A stretch of 14,055 nt of DNA from a virus (taxonomy: Duplodnaviria > Heunggongvirae > Uroviricota > Caudoviricetes), in the IMG/VR virus record IMGVR_UViG_3300038530_001701. One strand, written 5' to 3'. Under the pieces are notes generated by a model. It did not search any database and was not told where the DNA came from. It saw only the letters and a program-made list of their open reading frames with translations. Each line of letters begins with the position of its first letter. Positions within the stretch are counted from its first letter, which is position 1. The position numbers and the translations under genes are program-made. Positions 281-4,414 of this stretch are shown here, piece after piece.

Positions 281-356
281 CGGTGCGTGGTGTAATTGGC
301 TGCACATCAGGCTTTTAACCTGACTGGTGAGAGTTCGAGTCTCTCCGCACCGACCA
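281..356 (+). tRNA. trnK: tRNA-Lys(UUU)
   Basis: Acceptor CGGTGCG/CGCACCG; anticodon arm TCAGG-CTTTTAA-CCTGA; T loop TTCGAGT; A73 + CCA. Confidence 0.96.
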
Positions 357-357
357 T

Positions 358-432
358 TGTTCCATAGTTCAATTGGTAGAACGCTCGGCTGATAACCGTG
401 TAATACAGGTTCGAGTCCTGTTGGAACAACCA
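358..432 (+). tRNA. trnI: tRNA-Ile(GAU)
   Basis: Acceptor TGTTCCA/TGGAACA; loop CTGATAA; T arm ACAGG-TTCGAGT-CCTGT; CCA. Confidence 0.95.
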
Positions 433-468
433 TTCTAAAGAATTTTGTTGACAGAGTTCTTCAGAATG
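431..468 (+). repeat. Spacer hairpin copy 1 (ATTCTAAA...TTCAGAAT)
   Basis: 17-position stem with one A.C mismatch and a TTGA loop; same register as 3618-3652. Confidence 0.6.
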
Positions 469-476
469 ATTAATAT

Positions 477-550
477 AGCCCTGCGGGTGGATTCCCCGAC
501 TCCGGCCTACGAAGCTGGAAGGCTAGGTTCGATTCCTAGTAGGGCTGCCA
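477..550 (+). tRNA. trnR: tRNA-Arg(ACG) with an atypical D arm
   Basis: Acceptor AGCCCTG/TAGGGCT; anticodon arm CCGGC-CTACGAA-GCTGG; T arm CTAGG-TTCGATT-CCTAG; G73 + CCA. No U8; D stem CGGG/CCCG starts directly after the acceptor. Confidence 0.85.
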
Positions 551-558
551 AATTATTT

Positions 559-634
559 ACTCGTCTGGCAGAGCGGCAGATGCACTACTCTTACAAAGTA
601 GATTAGGTAGGTTCGATTCCTACGGCGAGTACCA
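559..634 (+). tRNA. trnV: tRNA-Val(UAC)
   Basis: Acceptor ACTCGTC/GGCGAGT; CTACT-CTTACAA-AGTAG; T arm GTAGG-TTCGATT-CCTAC; CCA. Confidence 0.95.
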
Positions 635-640
635 AGTTTT

Positions 641-716
641 GGGCTGATAGTAGCAATTGGTAAAATCTCAGGCTTGCACCTTGAAGTTCCGGGTTCGAAT
701 CCCGGTCGGTCCACCA
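641..716 (+). tRNA. trnA: tRNA-Ala(UGC)
   Basis: Acceptor GGGCTGA/TCGGTCC with the G3.U70 Ala identity pair; loop CTTGCAC; A73 + CCA. Confidence 0.96.
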
Positions 717-729
717 TATTAAAAAGTAC

Positions 730-804
730 AGGTAGTCAAACTTAATGACAAGTCGCTCTTGATCTTAGGCATCTATGGTGATAAACTATATCCACTACCT
801 ACAA
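730..804 (+). ncRNA. Degenerate tRNA-like cloverleaf (pseudo-tRNA or tRNA mimic)
   Basis: 7 bp AGGTAGT/ACTACCT followed by ACAA; internal arms ACTT/AAGT, GAT-CTTAGGC-ATC and TATGG-TGATAAA-CTATA; no TTCGA T loop. Confidence 0.35.
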
Positions 805-841
805 CTGTAGTGCCGAGGCTCGCAACCCAGGTGTTGCAGTA

Positions 842-873
842 AATCTACAAATAAGTTTGATATTTTGTAGATT
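842..873 (+). other. Spacer hairpin
   Basis: Perfect 10 bp AATCTACAAA (842-851)/TTTGTAGATT (864-873). Confidence 0.5.
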
Positions 874-885
874 AACCTTATTTAA

Positions 886-960
886 GGGTCTATAGCTTAT
901 TGGTAAAAGCCACCGACTCATAATCGGTTGAATCAGGTTCGATTCCTTTTAGACCCACCA
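886..960 (+). tRNA. tRNA with CAU anticodon, probably Ile2 (lysidine type) rather than elongator Met
   Basis: Acceptor GGGTCTA/TAGACCC; ACCGA-CTCATAA-TCGGT resembles the bacterial Ile2 anticodon arm; weak T stem (TCAGG/CCTTT); CCA. Ile2 versus Met is inferred. Confidence 0.85.
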
Positions 961-966
961 ATTAAT

Positions 967-1043
967 CTCCCGGTAGCTCAATGGACTAGAGCAAAAGGTT
1001 TCTACCCTTTAGGTTGGGGGTTCGAGTCCCTCTCGGGAGGCCA
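967..1043 (+). tRNA. trnR: tRNA-Arg(UCU)
   Basis: Acceptor CTCCCGG/TCGGGAG; AAAGG-TTTCTAC-CCTTT; T loop TTCGAGT; CCA. Confidence 0.95.
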
Positions 1044-1058
1044 AATAAAGGTTGACAA

Positions 1059-1286
1059 ATGCTAGTAACTGCTTTAATATTGCTCGTAGCATTTATGATA
1101 TTACCAGCAGCACTTGGAACATTAGTTTTGTTTCATACTCTGGTTAGAAAGAAAAGTCCCCCAGTGGATGAGTCAAATAGAATCAACCATTTCAGATTAG
1201 TCTGGTTTGCGTTGACAAGGGAAGATAAGTTTGTTAAGCTCTTTCCGTGGCTCTCAAAAGATGAGTGGGACAATTTAAATAAATAA
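1059..1286 (+). CDS. Small hypothetical membrane protein (75 aa)
   Basis: Hydrophobic N-terminal segment (LILLVAFMILPAALGTLVLF) followed by basic RKK; AAGG 7 nt before the ATG; fills the gap between tRNA-Arg and the next ORF. Confidence 0.7.
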   Translation: MLVTALILLVAFMILPAALGTLVLFHTLVRKKSPPVDESNRINHFRLVWFALTREDKFVKLFPWLSKDEWDNLNK

Positions 1287-1303
1287 TTAAGGAGGATCAA
1301 CTA

Positions 1304-1819
1304 ATGGTTGACATAGAAGAAGTAAAAGAGTATATTCGTAATAGCTCAGACCAATCTAGTGTCTACATTGGTTGTGACTCAAAACGATTTGGTCGAAAGA
1401 ATAAAAGATTTGTTGCATACGCTTGCGTAGTTCTGATACACTTAGACAGTAAGCATGGAGCTAAGATGTTTAGCTTCAAACGAATCGAAAGAGATTTTGG
1501 ACAACTAAGACAAAGAATGGTTAATGAAGCTATTTTCGCTTGTGAAATTGGTTACGAGTTGAAAGAAGCTTGCGGTGATAGAACATTTGAAATTCACCTT
1601 GACATTAACCCTGACAAGAAACATGCTTCTTCTGTTGCATTGAAAGAAGCCTCTGGTATGGTCTTAGGTATGTTCGGTGAAAATCCAAAGGTTAAGCCTG
1701 AAGCGTTTGCCGCTTCTACCGCAGCAGATAAATTAGTCTGCGAATATGGTGGAAGAAAGAATTTTAAAAAATTCCTTGACAAACTGAAAAACGGTGTTAA
1801 ACTAGAGGATATGAAATAA
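1304..1819 (+). CDS. RNase H-like YkuK (DUF458) family protein
   Basis: Strong SD (AAGGAGG); motifs VYIGCDS, RMVNEA, EIHLDINP and KPEAFAASTAAD recognised as the YkuK RNase H-like pattern (from memory, no HMM run). Confidence 0.8.
   Translation: MVDIEEVKEYIRNSSDQSSVYIGCDSKRFGRKNKRFVAYACVVLIHLDSKHGAKMFSFKRIERDFGQLRQRMVNEAIFACEIGYELKEACGDRTFEIHLDINPDKKHASSVALKEASGMVLGMFGENPKVKPEAFAASTAADKLVCEYGGRKNFKKFLDKLKNGVKLEDMK
1776..1803 (+). promoter_or_regulatory. sigma70-like promoter inside the 3' end of the YkuK-like gene
   Basis: A/T tract, TTGACA (1776-1781), 16 bp spacer, TG-T-TAAACT extended -10 (1795-1803); predicted start ~1810, just upstream of the CAGCAA elements. Confidence 0.6.
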
Positions 1820-1826
1820 AGAATTA

Positions 1827-1889
1827 AGGCTGCTTTCAGCAACTTACAAAACTTCTAACCATTAATCTAGAACTTAAGTAATGCAGCCT
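1827..1889 (+). ncRNA. CAGCAA stem element, copy 1
   Basis: AGGCTGC/GCAGCCT terminal stem; TTTCAGCAA next to the 5' strand; internal TTCTA/TAGAA hairpin. Confidence 0.55.
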
Positions 1890-1899
1890 GTTAAAAATT

Positions 1900-2008
1900 T
1901 GGATGAGTACAGCAACTAAACTCAAATACTTTCTGTAAAAAAGTCCCTAACGGTTCGACTCCGGTTGCCTCGTAAGTGGTGGTCACGGGAAAGAGGCATT
2001 CTCATCCA
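1900..2008 (+). ncRNA. CAGCAA stem element, copy 2, with a permuted tRNA-like domain (Y RNA/YrlA-like hypothesis)
   Basis: TGGATGAG/CTCATCCA terminal stem; TACAGCAA; ACTTT-CTGTAAA-AAAGT anticodon-like arm; CGG-TTCGACT-CCG T arm; downstream AGTGGTGGTCAC D-loop-like segment. Confidence 0.6.
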
Positions 2009-2031
2009 GTATCTATTTTAAAAGTTTTAAA

Positions 2032-2105
2032 CTCCCTCTGGCGTAGTGGTAGCGTGTGTGGTTTGGGGCCATAAGGTGAAGGTTCGATTCCTTCGGGGGA
2101 GACCA
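2032..2105 (+). tRNA. trnP: tRNA-Pro(UGG)
   Basis: Acceptor CTCCCTC/GGGGGAG; TGTGG-TTTGGGG-CCATA; T arm GAAGG-TTCGATT-CCTTC; CCA. Confidence 0.95.
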
Positions 2106-2110
2106 ATTTT

Positions 2111-2197
2111 GGGGCAAGCGCAGAGACGGGTCGGCTGCATCGGACTGTAAATCCGATACCTTTGGTTTTCTAGGTTCGAATCCTAGTTGTCCCACCA
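2111..2197 (+). tRNA. trnY: tRNA-Tyr(GUA)
   Basis: Acceptor GGGGCAA/TTGTCCC; TCGGA-CTGTAAA-TCCGA; long variable arm; A73 + CCA. Confidence 0.94.
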
Positions 2198-2202
2198 ATT
2201 TT

Positions 2203-2269
2203 AGGATGCTTACAGCAAACATATTATATACTTTTCTATTGGAAGAAAACTAAGTAAATAATGCATCCT
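2203..2269 (+). ncRNA. CAGCAA stem element, copy 3
   Basis: AGGATGC/GCATCCT terminal stem; TTACAGCAA; internal TTTTCT/AGAAAA hairpin; 3' segment similar to copy 1. Confidence 0.55.
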
Positions 2270-2281
2270 TATTTTATTAAT

Positions 2282-2357
2282 GTTGGCGTGGCTGAATGGT
2301 CTTAGGCACTTGGCTGCAACCCTTGTCATGCAGGTTCGAATCCTGTCGCCAACTCCA
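2282..2357 (+). tRNA. trnC: tRNA-Cys(GCA)
   Basis: Acceptor GTTGGCG/CGCCAAC; loop CTGCAAC; U73 (Cys identity) + CCA; two U.U mismatches in the anticodon stem. Confidence 0.92.
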
Positions 2358-2364
2358 AAGTTTT

Positions 2365-2442
2365 GCCTTGCGAAGCATTTATCTGGATGATGTCGGCCTT
2401 TGTAACGCCGGGAATAGAGTTCGATTCTCTGCCAAGGCACCA
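2365..2442 (+). tRNA. trnT: tRNA-Thr(UGU), atypical
   Basis: Acceptor GCCTTGC/CCAAGGC (C7.C66 mismatch); CGGCC-TTTGTAA-CGCCG (C31.C39 mismatch); T arm TAGAG-TTCGATT-CTCTG; CCA. Confidence 0.8.
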
Positions 2443-2457
2443 ATTTAGGAGGTTTTT

Positions 2458-2808
2458 TTGAAAAATTGTACAAGATGTTTAGAAGAAAAACCTCTATCAG
2501 AGTATTATACAAAAGGTAATAGACTACACTCTGAATGTAAGACTTGCTTCATTAAAAGAAAAATTGAAGAAAGACAAGTTAAAAAAGCTTACATAAGGCA
2601 ATTAGCTGGTAGTCAGTGTACATTATGTGGTTACGATAGGTGTACAGACGCTTTAGAGTTACATCACAGAGACCCAACAAAGAAAGAATTCAGAGTCTCT
2701 GGTATGTGGAGTTTCTCTAAAGAGAGGATTAAAAAAGAGGTTGAAAAGTGTGTTCTACTATGTTCTAATTGTCATAGAGAAGTTCACGCAGGAATCTCTA
2801 AAGTTTAA
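2458..2808 (+). CDS. HNH endonuclease with CxxC zinc-binding motifs (116 aa, TTG start)
   Basis: AGGAGG SD at 2447-2452; CTRC, CKTC, CTLC; ALELHHRDP...CVLLCSNCHREVH HNH signature. Confidence 0.88.
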   Translation: MKNCTRCLEEKPLSEYYTKGNRLHSECKTCFIKRKIEERQVKKAYIRQLAGSQCTLCGYDRCTDALELHHRDPTKKEFRVSGMWSFSKERIKKEVEKCVLLCSNCHREVHAGISKV

Positions 2809-2810
2809 AT

Positions 2811-2886
2811 GGCGTCGTAGTTTAATGGTGAGAATACCGGGCCTTCAACCCGAGTGATGACGGTTCGAATCCGTTCGACGCTACCA
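2811..2886 (+). tRNA. trnE: tRNA-Glu(UUC) with C33
   Basis: Acceptor GGCGTCG/CGACGCT; CGGG-CCTTCAA-CCCG; T arm GACGG-TTCGAAT-CCGTT; CCA. Confidence 0.82.
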
Positions 2887-2893
2887 ATTTAAT

Positions 2894-2969
2894 GCGGCTG
2901 TAGCTCAACTGGTAGAGCACTACCCTGTCAAGGTAGAAGGTGCGGGTTCGACTCCCGTTAGTCGCGCCA
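2894..2969 (+). tRNA. trnD: tRNA-Asp(GUC)
   Basis: Acceptor GCGGCTG/TAGTCGC; CTACC-CTGTCAA-GGTAG; G73 + CCA. Confidence 0.96.
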
Positions 2970-2976
2970 CTTTTGT

Positions 2977-3052
2977 TGCGGTGTAGCTCAATTGGCAGAG
3001 CGCGTGACTTTGACTCACGAGGTTGAGAGTTCGAACCTCTCCACCGTTTCCA
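2977..3052 (+). tRNA. trnQ: tRNA-Gln(UUG)
   Basis: Acceptor TGCGGTG/CACCGTT (U1.U72 mismatch); CGTGA-CTTTGAC-TCACG; T arm GAGAG-TTCGAAC-CTCTC; CCA. Confidence 0.92.
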
Positions 3053-3069
3053 TTTAGAGTATTCTTTGT

Positions 3070-3148
3070 GGTGTACTTAGTTTAACTGGACAAAAACTCT
3101 CGGATGTGACCCGAGCAGATGCGAGTTCGAATCTCGTAGTACACCCCA
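3070..3148 (+). tRNA. trnH: tRNA-His(GUG) with encoded G-1
   Basis: 8 bp GGTGTACT/AGTACACC including G-1:C73; CTCGG-ATGTGAC-CCGAG; CCA. Confidence 0.95.
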
Positions 3149-3159
3149 AAGAGTATTTC

Positions 3160-3234
3160 GCGGAGTTGGTATAACGGTATTATTTCGGTCTTCCAAACCG
3201 TAAGATTAGGGTTCGAATCCCTAACTCCGCACCA
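3160..3234 (+). tRNA. trnG: tRNA-Gly(UCC)
   Basis: Acceptor GCGGAGT/ACTCCGC; CGGT-CTTCCAA-ACCG; A73 + CCA. Confidence 0.93.
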
Positions 3235-3241
3235 ATTTTAT

Positions 3242-3319
3242 TCCGGTATAGCAATCAAGGTGAATGCAACTCGCTGTTAACGAGTATGGAGGCAGGTTCG
3301 ATGCCTGCTACCGGAGCCA
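3242..3319 (+). tRNA. trnN: tRNA-Asn(GUU)
   Basis: Acceptor TCCGGTA/TACCGGA; ACTCG-CTGTTAA-CGAGT; G73 + CCA. Confidence 0.95.
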
Positions 3320-3325
3320 ATTTGA

Positions 3326-3403
3326 CGCAGAGTGGACTGGAGGCGGTTCCAGCTTGGTCTCATAAGCCAAATTACGCGGGTTCGAGTCCCGCCTCTGCAA
3401 CCA
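3326..3403 (+). tRNA. trnfM: Initiator-type tRNA-Met(CAU)
   Basis: C1.A72 mismatch (CGCAGAG/CTCTGCA); TTGGT-CTCATAA-GCCAA; A73 + CCA. Confidence 0.9.
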
Positions 3404-3410
3404 ATTTAAA

Positions 3411-3488
3411 GATTGTCAGGTAGCTCCTGAATGAACTGAGGATTTGCAGGAGACCCTCAGAGAGATTAACAAAAAATCCTGCCCAATT
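3411..3488 (+). ncRNA. ATGAACTGAGG pseudoknot-capable element A
   Basis: TCAGG/CCTGA hairpin; ATGAA linker; CTGAGG/CCTCAG stem; loop GCAGGA (3446-3451) complementary to TCCTGC (3477-3482); GATTG/CAATT closing helix. Confidence 0.55.
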
Positions 3489-3493
3489 TCATT

Positions 3494-3594
3494 AGTCAGT
3501 TTATTTAGAATGATTCGGAAAGAGTCCGTATGAACTGAGGGCGACACCTGCCTACTGATAGCCCTGATCAGGTGAATGGGTTAGTGGTGTGACT
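3494..3594 (+). ncRNA. ATGAACTGAGG pseudoknot-capable element B
   Basis: CGGA/TCCG hairpin; ATGAA linker; CTGA/TCAG plus GGGC/GCCC stem; loop ACACC (3544-3548) complementary to GGTGT (3586-3590); AGTC/GACT closing helix. Confidence 0.5.
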
Positions 3595-3617
3595 CGTGCA
3601 GGAGAGAACTGCACTCG

Positions 3618-3652
3618 ATTCTAAAAAGTTTTCTTAGAGAGTTTTTCAGAAT
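3618..3652 (+). repeat. Spacer hairpin copy 2 (ATTCTAAA...TTCAGAAT)
   Basis: 16-position stem with the A.C mismatch and two U.G wobbles at the same positions as in 431-468. Confidence 0.6.
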
Positions 3653-3655
3653 ACT

Positions 3656-3731
3656 GGAGCTTTGGTAGATGTGGTCACTACGTCTGTTTGAAGCACAGAA
3701 GAACACGGTTCGATTCCGTGAGGCTCCACCA
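3656..3731 (+). tRNA. trnF: tRNA-Phe(GAA)
   Basis: Acceptor GGAGCTT/AGGCTCC; TCTGT-TTGAAGC-ACAGA; CCA. Confidence 0.95.
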
Positions 3732-3737
3732 AAATTC

Positions 3738-3829
3738 GGAAGATAATCCTACAAGGTTGTAGGGAACGCCTGCTAAGCGTGTCGCATTGTGATGAACAGT
3801 GTCTGGATCGTTACCAGTATCTTCCTCCA
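3738..3829 (+). tRNA. trnS: tRNA-Ser(GCU) with a non-canonical T loop
   Basis: Acceptor GGAAGAT/ATCTTCC; ACGC-CTGCTAA-GCGT; long variable arm; T loop ATCGTTA; extended D stem CCTAC/GTAGG; U73 + CCA. Confidence 0.88.
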
Positions 3830-3836
3830 ATTTTAT

Positions 3837-3913
3837 GCTCAGGTGCGCTAATTGGCAAAGCGGTAAGATTTAGAATCTTATGAGTGTGGGTTCGACTCCC
3901 ACCCTGAGTACCA
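3837..3913 (+). tRNA. trnL: tRNA-Leu(UAG), short variable loop
   Basis: Acceptor GCTCAGG/CCTGAGT; TAAGA-TTTAGAA-TCTTA; A73 + CCA. Confidence 0.94.
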
Positions 3914-3920
3914 TTTTAAT

Positions 3921-3999
3921 GCTGGTGTGGCCTAATTGGCATAGGCGGCTCTCTCAAAAGGAGTGACATTTGTCGGTTCGACTCCGACCACCAGTACCA
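3921..3999 (+). tRNA. trnL: tRNA-Leu(CAA), short variable loop
   Basis: Acceptor GCTGGTG/CACCAGT; GCTCT-CTCAAAA-GGAGT; A73 + CCA. Confidence 0.92.
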
Positions 4000-4015
4000 G
4001 AACAAAGGATAATTT

Positions 4016-4168
4016 ATAAGTATCTTTGAAAAACGTCAAAAAGAAAAAGACGAAAAACGTATGTCTGACTATAAGAATCCAGACTACGCTAAAGGTATGG
4101 AAGAATTATTCAAACTTGTTCGTGAAGGTAAAATACAAGTACCTCAAAGAGCAAGATTAAAGTTTTAA
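4016..4168 (+). CDS. Small basic hypothetical protein (50 aa from an ATA start; 35 aa from ATG 4061)
   Basis: Open frame SIFEKRQKEKDEKRMSDYKNPDYAKGMEELFKLVREGKIQVPQRARLKF* fills the spacer between two tRNAs; AAGGA SD (4005-4009) lies 6 nt before ATA; in-frame TAA at 4010-4012. Confidence 0.55.
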   Translation: MSIFEKRQKEKDEKRMSDYKNPDYAKGMEELFKLVREGKIQVPQRARLKF

Positions 4169-4169
4169 T

Positions 4170-4258
4170 GGAAGGTAGCGGCTCGTGGGAGCCAATCGGT
4201 CTTGAAAACCGACATGCCAGTGGAAACGCTGTCAGTTCGACTCTGATTCCTTCCTCCA
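4170..4258 (+). tRNA. trnS: tRNA-Ser(UGA)
   Basis: Acceptor GGAAGGT/TCCTTCC; TCGGT-CTTGAAA-ACCGA; long variable arm; CCA. Confidence 0.93.
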
Positions 4259-4265
4259 ATTCTAT

Positions 4266-4336
4266 GCAGGACGATCTGGTGATCAAGCGAGATTCCAAAC
4301 CTTGCTAGTAGGGTTCGATACCTTAGTTCTGTGCCA
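4266..4336 (+). tRNA. trnW: tRNA-Trp(CCA), 71 nt with a reduced D arm
   Basis: Acceptor GCAGGAC/GTTCTGT; loop TTCCAAA; T arm TAGGG-TTCGATA-CCTTA; G73 + CCA; D region only GATCTGGTGATC. Confidence 0.8.
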
Positions 4337-4337
4337 T

Positions 4338-4414
4338 GCTCCGGTACGCTAATTGGCAAAGCGGGGAGATTTAAAATCTCTTGATTGTGAGTTCGACTCT
4401 CACTCGGAGTACCA
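4338..4414 (+). tRNA. trnL: tRNA-Leu(UAA), short variable loop
   Basis: Acceptor GCTCCGG/TCGGAGT; GGAGA-TTTAAAA-TCTCT; A73 + CCA. Confidence 0.94.

What the first reader, a model, noticed from the sequence alone, without database searches (positions are those of the whole stretch)
1900..2008. Circularly permuted tRNA-Tyr-like domain inside CAGCAA copy 2
Seen: inside the terminal stem the order is an anticodon-like arm ACTTT-CTGTAAA-AAAGT (1928-1944; loop identical to the real tRNA-Tyr(GUA) at 2111-2197), a 4-nt CCCT linker, a T arm with GGTTCGACTCC (1952-1962), then a GG-containing D-loop-like segment (1971-1987). There is no free acceptor end and no CCA. The order anticodon, T, D is a circular permutation of tRNA. 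Established: YrlA-type Y RNAs mimic tRNA with a permuted, capped-acceptor domain, and some host defences cleave specific tRNAs in the anticodon loop (colicin E5 targets include tRNA-Tyr). Inference: an unchargeable tRNA-Tyr mimic acting as a decoy, tether or repair-enzyme guide. The acceptor/D region has alternative pairings (GCCTC/GAGGC; TCCC/GGGA), so that part of the fold is uncertain.
Basis: partly seen in the sequence, partly recalled or inferred. Interest (0 to 1): 0.85.

Follow-up and report, generated by a model that had tools for sequence, protein, structure and literature searches.

The report
Phage Y-RNA-like tRNA mimic
The 110-base element is a real small phage RNA: a stripped-down tRNA look-alike on a conserved stem-plus-UACAGCAA handle, and it is probably a partner of a Ro60-like ring protein that the same phage encodes rather than a tyrosine-tRNA decoy.

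Summary
At 1899-2009 a 9-bp closing stem and UACAGCAA enclose an anticodon-like hairpin, a T arm and a small GG-containing D-like hairpin. There is no tRNA call and no acceptor end.

It belongs to a large family. More than 117 viral contigs carry the same handle. The clear members are complete circularly permuted tRNAs: anticodon arm, variable region, T arm, capped 7-bp acceptor stem, D arm. Covariation is strong (93.7% of cells paired against 63% when shuffled).

A model built without the window finds all three window copies. The window copy is a reduced member whose acceptor/D fold is unresolved.

28 of 29 large contigs chosen by the RNA pattern alone encode one DUF2828/DUF7788 protein. Its model matches Ro60 over its full length. 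The window's own phage encodes it, with seven more copies of the RNA just upstream.

So a Y-RNA-like reading is supported, by analogy rather than membership. Rfam YrlA does not match this copy, and the motif differs from GNCGAA.

The tRNA-Tyr decoy idea is not supported. The only ortholog has GGU in place of GUA, and loops across the family are diverse.

Binding and function are inferred. The scan has noted this family before, in this genome and at least 36 others. I found no description in Rfam 15 or the papers searched.

The parts
1899..1907 (+). P1 closing stem, 5' strand (UUGGAUGAG)
   Evidence: It pairs with 2001-2009. In the family all 7 P1 pairs show compensatory changes.
1908..1915 (+). 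UACAGCAA handle motif, directly 3' of the P1 5' strand
   Evidence: It is invariant in the 43-sequence alignment, though the search pattern required it. It is also present in relatives found through a protein and not through the motif, and in 7 further copies in the same genome.
1916..1927 (+). Variable linker between the motif and the tRNA-like body
   Evidence: Length and sequence vary across the family.
1928..1944 (+). Anticodon-like hairpin ACUUU-CUGUAAA-AAAGU
   Evidence: Read directly. The stem is identical in ortholog L006, where the loop is CUGGUAA. L121 shares the 15-nt stretch CUUUCUGUAAAAAAG.
1945..1948 (+). Variable-region-like linker CCCU. CCC 1945-1947 may pair with GGG 1987-1989.
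   Evidence: The ortholog has CUC/GAG at the same places, which is one compensatory change.
1949..1965 (+). T arm AACGG-UUCGACU-CCGGU
   Evidence: It matches the T arm of model R1. The loop is identical in the ortholog and the stem changes keep pairing (A-G becomes G-U).
1966..1975 (+). Segment in the place of the acceptor stem. UGCCUC 1966-1971 can pair with GAGGCA 1993-1998.
   Evidence: This helix is favoured by energy in the window (-25.8 against -17.3 kcal/mol) but is weakened in the ortholog. The model's acceptor hairpin is not matched.
1976..1986 (+). Reduced D-like hairpin GUG-GUGGU-CAC with the GG dinucleotide
   Evidence: It is identical in the ortholog. It aligns with the GUG-UAAUGGUAG-CAC D arms of the L121 group.
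1987..2000 (+). 3' joining strand (GGGAAAGAGGCAUU)
   Evidence: It holds both alternative pairing partners. In-genome paralog L155 3364-3459 has GAAAGA at this place.
2001..2009 (+). P1 closing stem, 3' strand (CUCAUCCAG)
   Evidence: Complementary to 1899-1907.
1827..1889 (+). Sister copy 1: P1 + UUUCAGCAA, with no tRNA-like body
   Evidence: R1 scores 22.3 bits. Rfam Dicty_Class_I_RNA gives a weak hit at E 0.16. It is conserved in L006/L143.
2203..2269 (+). Sister copy 3: P1 + UUACAGCAA, with no tRNA-like body
   Evidence: R1 scores 33.9 bits. Rfam Dicty_Class_I_RNA gives a weak hit at E 0.45.

Best explanation
Window 1899-2009 encodes a small non-coding RNA of a widespread phage family with two modules.

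Module 1 is a handle: a 7-9 bp stem joining the 5' and 3' ends, followed on the 5' strand by single-stranded UACAGCAA.

Module 2 is variable. In the full members it is a whole tRNA body, circularly permuted so that the handle enters near the D-stem/anticodon-stem junction and the acceptor stem is capped by a loop. In this copy the body is reduced to an anticodon-like hairpin, a T arm and a mini D hairpin with GG. These are enough for a tRNA-like elbow, but there is no acceptor stem, so it cannot be charged.

Inferred mechanism:
1. The RNA is made with the tRNA array and trimmed to the closed stem.
2. The handle docks on the phage's Ro60-like ring protein (DUF2828/DUF7788, encoded about 28 kb away in the same genome).
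3. The tRNA-like module recruits or occupies a factor that recognises tRNA shape, such as a processing or modification enzyme, an exonuclease or a tRNA-directed nuclease. In this it works like a Y RNA of the YrlA type.

The likely biological setting is RNA quality control or counter-defence during infection.

Shown here: the sequence features, family membership, the covarying structure of the family, the gene co-occurrence and the Ro60 fold of the protein.
Inferred: expression, processing, binding and the recruited factor.
For: Family and structure:
- A pattern of the motif plus a T loop finds more than 117 viral contigs.
- RNAalifold on 43 of these elements independently predicts P1, the T arm, an abutting 7-bp capped acceptor stem and the D arm. 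21 of 23 pairs have compensatory changes.
- 93.7% of cells are paired, against 63% when shuffled and about 41% when slid. The covariation score is 0.838 against 0.24.

Membership of the window copy:
- Model R1, built without window sequence, hits 1900-2008 (31.7 bits), 1827-1889 (22.3) and 2203-2269 (33.9) end to end.

Protein partner:
- 42 of 117 loci of at most 14 kb carry a roughly 480-aa DUF2828+DUF7788 gene on the same strand.
- 28 of 29 whole contigs chosen by the RNA pattern have exactly one such gene, and 18 of 18 among those at least 90% complete.
- By contrast, 710 of 50,697 phage records carry it.
- The window's own genome has the gene (L130 217-1629), with 7 handle RNAs directly upstream of it.

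Ro60 likeness:
- The AlphaFold model has pLDDT 89.6.
- The top 13 PDB hits are all Ro60/TROVE, full length, E 1e-9, TM 0.63. Swiss-Prot Ro60 proteins top that list as well.

Y-RNA analogy:
- Canonical family members give sub-threshold YrlA hits (E about 5e-5).
- Ro60 partners carry a conserved 5'-strand motif next to a terminal stem, and YrlA carries a T-AS-D tRNA-like domain (PMC4201824; PMC12135203).

Function lead:
- A Ro60-like gp130 at the head of the tRNA array of Felix-O1-like phage Bas63 counters the Ppl defence. Its authors guessed that some neighbouring 'tRNAs' are Y RNAs (bioRxiv 10.1101/2024.10.10.617714).
- A Felixounavirus homolog has an unannotated R1 hit of 75 bits 1 kb downstream of the gene.
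Against: - No experiment or read data show that the RNA is made or bound.
- In this genome the gene lies about 28 kb from this copy.
- The window copy scores in the same range as false hits of R1 on junctions between neighbouring tRNAs (about 33 bits). Only its end-to-end match with handle and motif sets it apart.
- Its acceptor and D parts do not fit the family model, and its fold is not unusually stable (z -1.14).
- P1 pairing and the motif were selection criteria for the family set, so their conservation there is partly by construction.
- Bas63 gp130 rescued T7 on Ppl hosts without any phage RNA, so the RNAs may not be needed for that activity.
Confidence: 0.68

Rival explanations
1. A tRNA-Tyr-specific decoy. 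The GUA loop mimics tRNA-Tyr and soaks up or misdirects a Tyr-specific anticodon nuclease, independently of any Ro60-like protein.
For: - The loop CUGUAAA is identical to that of the phage's own tRNA-Tyr.
- The same loop and stem core recur in L121 and L046.
- From general knowledge, nucleases that cut tRNA-Tyr exist.
Against: - The only ortholog has CUGGUAA (GGU) with the stem unchanged.
- L121 against L111/L101 differ GUA/GGA.
- Only about 40% of family members have a canonical anticodon-like hairpin. Those show 24 different triplets with no dominant one.
- If CCC/GGG stacks on the hairpin, the arm is 3-4 bp longer than a tRNA anticodon arm.
- Sister copies 1 and 3 have the handle but no tRNA part.
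Confidence: 0.08
2. A decaying tRNA pseudogene or rearranged tRNA fragment in the array, with no function of its own.
For: - It lies within a tRNA array.
- The acceptor stem is missing, the D loop is shrunk and the T stem has a mismatch.
- The thermodynamic signal is weak.
Against: - It keeps the closing stem and the UACAGCAA motif of a family with strong covariation.
- It is conserved with a compensatory change in the ortholog.
- Similar acceptor-less copies sit beside the DUF2828 gene of the same genome.
Confidence: 0.07
3. A permuted or split tRNA gene. Cleavage in the acceptor cap and CCA trimming would turn it into a chargeable two-piece tRNA held together by P1.
For: - Several relatives have a 7-bp acceptor stem followed by N-CCA inside the cap loop, for example L130 13-141, L035, L028 and L094.
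- M. smegmatis YrlA is cut by RNase P and receives CCA (PMC4201824).
Against: - This copy has no acceptor stem and no CCA in that place.
- Many relatives cap the stem with 3-4-nt loops that have no CCA.
- No splicing-type junction was seen.
Confidence: 0.03
4. A cis-acting processing or transcription signal of the tRNA operon (an RNase entry site or attenuator) and not a stable RNA.
For: - It lies between genes in a polycistronic array.
- There is a promoter-like site at 1776-1803 just upstream.
Against: - Copies occur outside tRNA arrays, directly beside the DUF2828 gene, for example in mycobacteriophage Lolly9, which has one tRNA nearby.
- The tRNA-like body with its covarying capped acceptor stem is not explained by a cleavage signal.
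Confidence: 0.05

Closest known systems
YrlA / YrlB Y RNAs bound by bacterial and mycobacteriophage Ro60 (Rsr); Rfam RF02553; Chen et al. 2014, PMC4201824
   Same: - The design is modular: a terminal stem with a conserved 5'-strand motif, plus a tRNA-like domain in the order T arm, capped acceptor-like stem, D arm.
- Shorter partners lack the tRNA part, as YrlB does and as copies 1 and 3 do.
- The RNAs are encoded near, and on the same strand as, a Ro60-fold protein.
- Canonical family members give weak YrlA hits (38 bits, E about 5e-5).
   Different: - The motif is UACAGCAA, not GNCGAA(N)G.
- The protein is DUF2828/DUF7788, with no TROVE Pfam match in 29 contigs.
- Many members also keep an anticodon-like hairpin.
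- This copy lacks the acceptor-like stem and gets no YrlA hit even at E 10.
Thermus phage phiLo Ro60 with Yrl1/Yrl2 (PMC12135203; PDB 9KOP, 9L5Y)
   Same: - A phage-encoded Ro60-fold protein with small RNAs encoded just upstream.
- The motif in the bulge next to the terminal stem is needed for binding.
- 9KOP and 9L5Y are among the top structural matches of the DUF2828 model.
   Different: - The phiLo RNAs carry CGAA and are not described there as tRNA-like ('tRNA-like' occurs 0 times in the text).
- Binding to host PNPase is shown there. Nothing is shown for this family.
Bas63 gp130, Ro60-like counter of the Ppl defence (PhageMaP preprint, 10.1101/2024.10.10.617714)
   Same: It is a Felix-O1-like phage with a Ro60-like gene directly upstream of the tRNA array. 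The authors speculated that some annotated tRNAs are Y RNAs.
   Different: - No RNA was identified or tested there.
- gp130 alone sufficed in T7.
- That gp130 belongs to DUF2828 is my inference from a Felixounavirus homolog. I did not check it on the Bas63 record itself.
Class I RNAs of Dictyostelia (Rfam RF01414; PMC7919456)
   Same: [quoted passage not shown] Copies 1 and 3 of the window give the only non-tRNA Rfam hits in the region, to this family (21.5 and 19.8 bits).
   Different: - The scores are far below the gathering score (41.5).
- Class I RNAs are eukaryotic, have no tRNA-like body, and their shown binder is an RRM protein.
- Copy 2, the finding itself, gets no hit.
- Homology is untested.
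Circularly permuted tRNA genes of red algae and some archaea (general knowledge)
   Same: The 3' half of the tRNA body precedes the 5' half in the gene.
   Different: Those mature, through a splicing-type junction and a circular intermediate, into normal chargeable tRNAs. Here the acceptor is capped or absent and the ends are held in a conserved handle.

Membership tests
Handle RNA family (P1 + UACAGCAA) associated with DUF2828/DUF7788; unnamed, not in Rfam 15 | A closing stem of 6-9 bp joins the 5' and 3' ends | tested here: met
   1899-1907 pairs with 2001-2009, 9 bp.
Handle RNA family (P1 + UACAGCAA) associated with DUF2828/DUF7788; unnamed, not in Rfam 15 | (U)UACAGCAA immediately 3' of the 5' strand of the stem | tested here: met
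   1908-1915.
Handle RNA family (P1 + UACAGCAA) associated with DUF2828/DUF7788; unnamed, not in Rfam 15 | End-to-end match to a covariance model built from other phages' members | tested here: met
   R1 gives 31.7 bits over model positions 1-120. The acceptor and D segments fit poorly.
Handle RNA family (P1 + UACAGCAA) associated with DUF2828/DUF7788; unnamed, not in Rfam 15 | The same genome encodes a DUF2828/DUF7788 (Ro60-fold) protein | tested here: met
   L130 217-1629 in the window's own 86.6-kb contig carries PF11443+PF25043. A relative's model matches Ro60.
YrlA (Rfam RF02553) | Score at or above the Rfam gathering threshold (69 bits) | tested here: not met
   No YrlA hit on 1780-2300 even at E 10. 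Canonical relatives reach 38 bits.
YrlA (Rfam RF02553) | GNCGAA(N0-1)G motif near the 5' end (PMC4201824) | tested here: not met
   The motif here is UACAGCAA.
YrlA (Rfam RF02553) | tRNA-like domain with T arm, acceptor-like stem-loop and D arm, in that order | tested here: inconclusive
   The T arm is present. The acceptor-like stem is absent or replaced by UGCCUC/GAGGCA enclosing the D hairpin, and the D loop is reduced. Full relatives meet this feature.
YrlA (Rfam RF02553) | Encoded within about 4 kb of, and on the same strand as, a TROVE-domain Ro60 | tested here: not met
   No PF05731 match in 29 related contigs. The Ro60-like gene of this genome is DUF2828 and lies about 28 kb away.
tRNA (RF00005 / ARAGORN) | Cloverleaf with an acceptor stem formed by the 5' and 3' ends | tested here: not met
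   No call at 1900-2008 by ARAGORN or Rfam.
Dictyostelid Class I RNA (RF01414) | Score at or above the gathering threshold (41.5 bits) | tested here: not met
   No hit for 1900-2008. Copies 1 and 3 score 21.5 and 19.8 bits.
Any Ro60/Y-RNA-type ribonucleoprotein | Direct binding of the RNA by the ring protein | not testable with these tools
   It needs a gel-shift assay, pull-down or structure. The complex predictor handles proteins only.

The most novel reading that the evidence does not exclude
The stem-plus-UACAGCAA handle is the docking code of an ancient, unrecognised branch of Ro60-type particles (DUF2828/DUF7788 proteins). The branch would be shared by thousands of phages and by eukaryotes, and the orphan Class I RNAs of Dictyostelium would be its eukaryotic members. 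In phages the interchangeable tRNA-like bodies, with free-varying anticodon-like loops, would serve as tethers or decoys for host enzymes and defence nucleases that read tRNA shape.
Probability: 0.2. Interest if true: 0.9.

Novelty: new variant of a known kind. Interest (0 to 1): 0.66.

Why it matters
Ro60 and its Y RNAs are a classic but still poorly understood RNA-surveillance particle. In bacteria and phages only the TROVE/YrlA branch has been described.

This element belongs to a second and much larger branch. More than 7,800 protein clusters and 710 cultured phage genomes carry the protein, including Felix-O1-like coliphages, Listeria, Staphylococcus, Vibrio and mycobacterial phages. The RNA partners of this branch are unannotated and sit hidden in tRNA arrays.

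A member of what appears to be the same protein family already has a counter-defence phenotype (anti-Ppl). Knowing the RNAs therefore makes the mechanism testable in ordinary E. coli phage systems.

The reduced copy studied here shows which tRNA features are kept when the acceptor is lost: the T loop, the GG of the D loop and an anticodon-like hairpin. That points to recognition of the tRNA elbow and not to aminoacylation.

Tried and rejected
- **Similarity to known phages.** Near and distant DNA searches of 1700-2500 against 50,697 phage records found nothing beyond tRNA fragments.
- **Whole genome.** None is held for the window. I reached the rest of the genome by four exact-protein look-ups.
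- **TROVE Pfam.** A search in 29 related contigs gave 0 hits, so the partner is not a recognisable TROVE protein by sequence.
- **More orthologs of this subtype.**
  - A metagenome scan with the neighbouring RNaseH-like protein gave only the lineages already known.
  - A pattern for the T loop plus GUGGUGGUCAC gave only the known ortholog and one unrelated site.
  - So the acceptor/D fold could not be settled by covariation.
- **Energy comparison of the two folds.** It favours UGCCUC/GAGGCA in the window but is a tie in the ortholog.
- **RNaseH-like gene (PF04308) as a third core component.** Rejected: it is present in only 4 of 29 contigs.
- **Link to Dictyostelium.**
  - The profile search was swamped by phage and metagenome proteins.
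  - AlphaFold DB cluster rows carried no organism names.
  - Papers give no domain content for DDB_G0281243.
  - The question remains open.
- **Bas63 record.** A guessed accession returned a different phage, so I dropped that check.
- **Automatic parsing of D arms.** For the composite anticodon-stem test it was unreliable. Only the correctly parsed cases are quoted.

Full report
**Setting.** The window is part of an uncultured phage. It holds 24 tRNA genes on the + strand at 281-4414. Terminase, portal, capsid and tail genes follow. A gene for an RNaseH-like protein (PF04308) ends at 1819. Three stem-closed elements with a CAGCAA motif lie at 1827-1889, 1899-2009 and 2203-2269. The finding is the middle one.

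**Observation.** All features are at the stated coordinates.
- Closing stem: 1899-1907 with 2001-2009.
- UACAGCAA: 1908-1915.
- Hairpin ACUUU-CUGUAAA-AAAGU: 1928-1944.
- CCCU: 1945-1948.
- T arm AACGG-UUCGACU-CCGGU: 1949-1965.
- Mini hairpin GUG-GUGGU-CAC: 1976-1986.

Neither ARAGORN nor Rfam calls a tRNA there. The free-energy fold is not exceptional (z -1.14). The minimum-energy structure pairs UACAG of the motif with CUGUA of the loop. I regard that pairing as incidental.

**Relatives make the anatomy clear.** I looked for contigs that encode a relative of the neighbouring RNaseH-like protein. At the same position they carry elements of this form: P1, UACAGCAA, a short anticodon-like hairpin, a 5-nt variable region, a T arm, a 7-bp stem capped by a tetraloop, UA, a canonical D arm (GCUC-AGCGGGUA-GAGC), ACGUAAAA, P1. 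That is a whole tRNA body, circularly permuted and with a closed acceptor end.

I parsed these hits.

On 43 of them RNAalifold independently predicted P1, the T arm, the abutting acceptor hairpin and the D arm. 21 of 23 pairs showed compensatory changes. In a formal count 93.7% of cells are paired, against 63% after shuffling and about 41% after sliding the partners. The covariation score is 0.838 against 0.24.

One caveat applies. P1 pairing, the motif and the two G-C pairs of the T stem were selection criteria. The acceptor and D helices were not.

**The window copy is a member, but a reduced one.** Model R1 was built from those 43 sequences, none of them from the window or its ortholog. It matches 1900-2008 end to end (31.7 bits), and also 1827-1889 and 2203-2269 with the body deleted. 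Junctions between neighbouring tRNAs give partial false hits of similar score. What counts is therefore the end-to-end match that includes the handle.

In the alignment to the model, the acceptor hairpin is not formed and the D arm is skipped. The nearest full relatives are the L121 group. They share the 15-nt core CUUUCUGUAAAAAAG of the hairpin, and their D arm is GUG-UAAUGGUAG-CAC. The window copy looks like such an RNA that has lost the acceptor hairpin and shortened the D loop to GUGGU.

**Unresolved part of the fold.** Two helices compete.
- UGCCUC 1966-1971 with GAGGCA 1993-1998. This helix would stack on the T arm like an acceptor stem, but it encloses the D hairpin.
- CCC 1945-1947 with GGG 1987-1989. 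This helix would join the D hairpin to the base of the anticodon-like hairpin.

The first is favoured by energy in the window (-25.8 against -17.3 kcal/mol). In the ortholog it shrinks to 3-4 bp with a bulge, and the two folds tie.

The second has one compensatory change in the ortholog (CUC/GAG). It also fits the family logic. In paralog L155 3951-4056 of the same genome, CCCGA after the D arm pairs with UCGGG before the variable region. In canonical members with short hairpins, the bases after the D arm pair with those after the hairpin.

One ortholog is too few to decide between them.

**Protein partner.** I clustered all ORFs of at least 150 aa in the RNA-selected loci. One family of about 480 aa occurs in 42 loci on the same strand as the RNA. 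It is DUF2828 (PF11443) plus DUF7788 (PF25043, vWA-like).

A 33-sequence alignment gave a confident model (pLDDT 89.6). Its 13 best PDB matches are all Ro60/TROVE structures over the full length, among them Thermus phage phiLo Ro60. Swiss-Prot Ro60 proteins head the AlphaFold list.

TROVE Pfam finds nothing in 29 large RNA-selected contigs. The DUF2828 profile finds exactly one gene in 28 of the 29, and in 18 of 18 that are near complete. Among cultured phages, 710 of 50,697 records have the protein.

Exact-protein look-ups reached the window's own 86.6-kb contig. It encodes the protein (L130 217-1629), with seven handle RNAs directly upstream. These include a 73-bit canonical permuted tRNA with CCA in its cap and two acceptor-less copies.

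**Comparison with known systems.** YrlA has the same T, acceptor-like, D order and a 5' motif next to a terminal stem (PMC4201824). Canonical members of this family give only 38-bit YrlA hits and the window copy gives none. The motif differs from GNCGAA/CGAA, and the protein is not a recognisable TROVE protein. So the element works like a Y RNA but is not a YrlA member.

A preprint reports that the Ro60-like gp130 of Felix-O1-like phage Bas63 counters the Ppl defence. It guesses that some neighbouring tRNAs are Y RNAs. In a Felixounavirus record the homologous gene is followed by an unannotated 75-bit element. The same holds in mycobacteriophage Lolly9, next to its 'Ro-like RNA binding protein'.

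The handle also resembles the Class I RNAs of Dictyostelium: a stem followed by CCUUACAGCAA. Whether that reflects homology is open.

**The tRNA-Tyr idea.** The ortholog keeps the hairpin stem and the T loop, but its loop reads CUGGUAA. L121 differs from L111 and L101 as GUA against GGA. Across 104 elements, 41 have a canonical anticodon-like hairpin. They carry 24 different triplets, and the most frequent (UCU) occurs only five times. A function tied to tyrosine is therefore unlikely. A function that uses the general shape of an anticodon arm is not excluded.

**Verdict.** The permuted tRNA and Y-RNA-like reading is supported as an analogy. The Tyr-decoy reading is not supported. This is a reduced member of a large phage RNA family that is not in Rfam 15 or in the papers I searched, and that pairs with a Ro60-fold DUF2828 protein. 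Expression, binding and the recruited factor remain inferences. Earlier reports of this scan reached the same family-level reading in this genome and in at least 36 others. I re-tested the main claims here.

Noticed in passing
window 1827-1889 and 2203-2269: Two sister RNAs have the same stem and (U)UNCAGCAA handle but no tRNA-like body. They play the YrlB role to copy 2's YrlA role. Their only non-tRNA Rfam similarity is a weak one to Dictyostelium Class I RNA (21.5 and 19.8 bits).
   Followed up: partly
L001, L005, L039, L072, L076, L084, L019, L038, L063, L065 (canonical relatives): The anticodon stem seems to be built from three strands. A 3-bp hairpin plus 2 bp (or 2 bp plus 3 bp) formed with the bases just after the D arm (ACG...) always sums to 5 bp, and L084 has a GG/CC swap. 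So the handle would enter inside the 5' strand of the anticodon stem. This rests on manual reading, because the automatic parse was noisy.
   Followed up: partly
L130 13-141 (own genome), L035, L028, L094, L065, L019, L022: In several full members the 7-bp acceptor 3' strand is followed by a discriminator base and CCA inside the cap loop. This suggests descent from CCA-encoding tRNA genes and possible RNase P cleavage, as reported for M. smegmatis YrlA.
   Followed up: no
window 1304-1819: An RNaseH-like (PF04308, YkuK-type) gene lies directly upstream of the RNAs. It recurs near the DUF2828 gene in some unrelated contigs (G003, G012), but in only 4 of 29 contigs overall, so it is an accessory neighbour and not a core part.
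   Followed up: yes
window 1908-1912 and 1933-1937: UACAG of the handle is perfectly complementary to CUGUA of the anticodon-like loop, and the minimum-energy fold uses this pairing. UAC is also the Tyr codon read by GUA. This is probably coincidence, since the ortholog pairs only with a bulge.
   Followed up: partly
window 1776-1803: There is a promoter-like site (TTGACA, 16 nt, TG-TAAACT) inside the end of the RNaseH-like gene, just upstream of copy 1. It is a consensus match only.
   Followed up: no
window 2458-2808: A 116-aa cysteine-rich ORF sits inside the tRNA array and has no Pfam match. Similar small Cys-rich ORFs interrupt the array in relatives (L006, L007).
   Followed up: no
window 298-372 (- strand): ARAGORN calls a tRNA-Ser(cga) on the minus strand that overlaps tRNA-Lys and tRNA-Ile on the plus strand. 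Rfam gives no minus-strand tRNA match there at its gathering score, so this is probably a false call.
   Followed up: no
L154 7359-7484 (Escherichia phage fjerdesal) and L153 4044-4172 (Mycobacterium phage Lolly9): Cultured phages carry unannotated full permuted-tRNA handle RNAs (75 bits each) next to their vWFA or 'Ro-like RNA binding protein' genes. Some Felix-O1-like records annotate 'tRNA-OTHER' or 'tRNA-pseudo' features somewhere in this gene-plus-tRNA stretch; I did not check whether they coincide with the element.
   Followed up: partly
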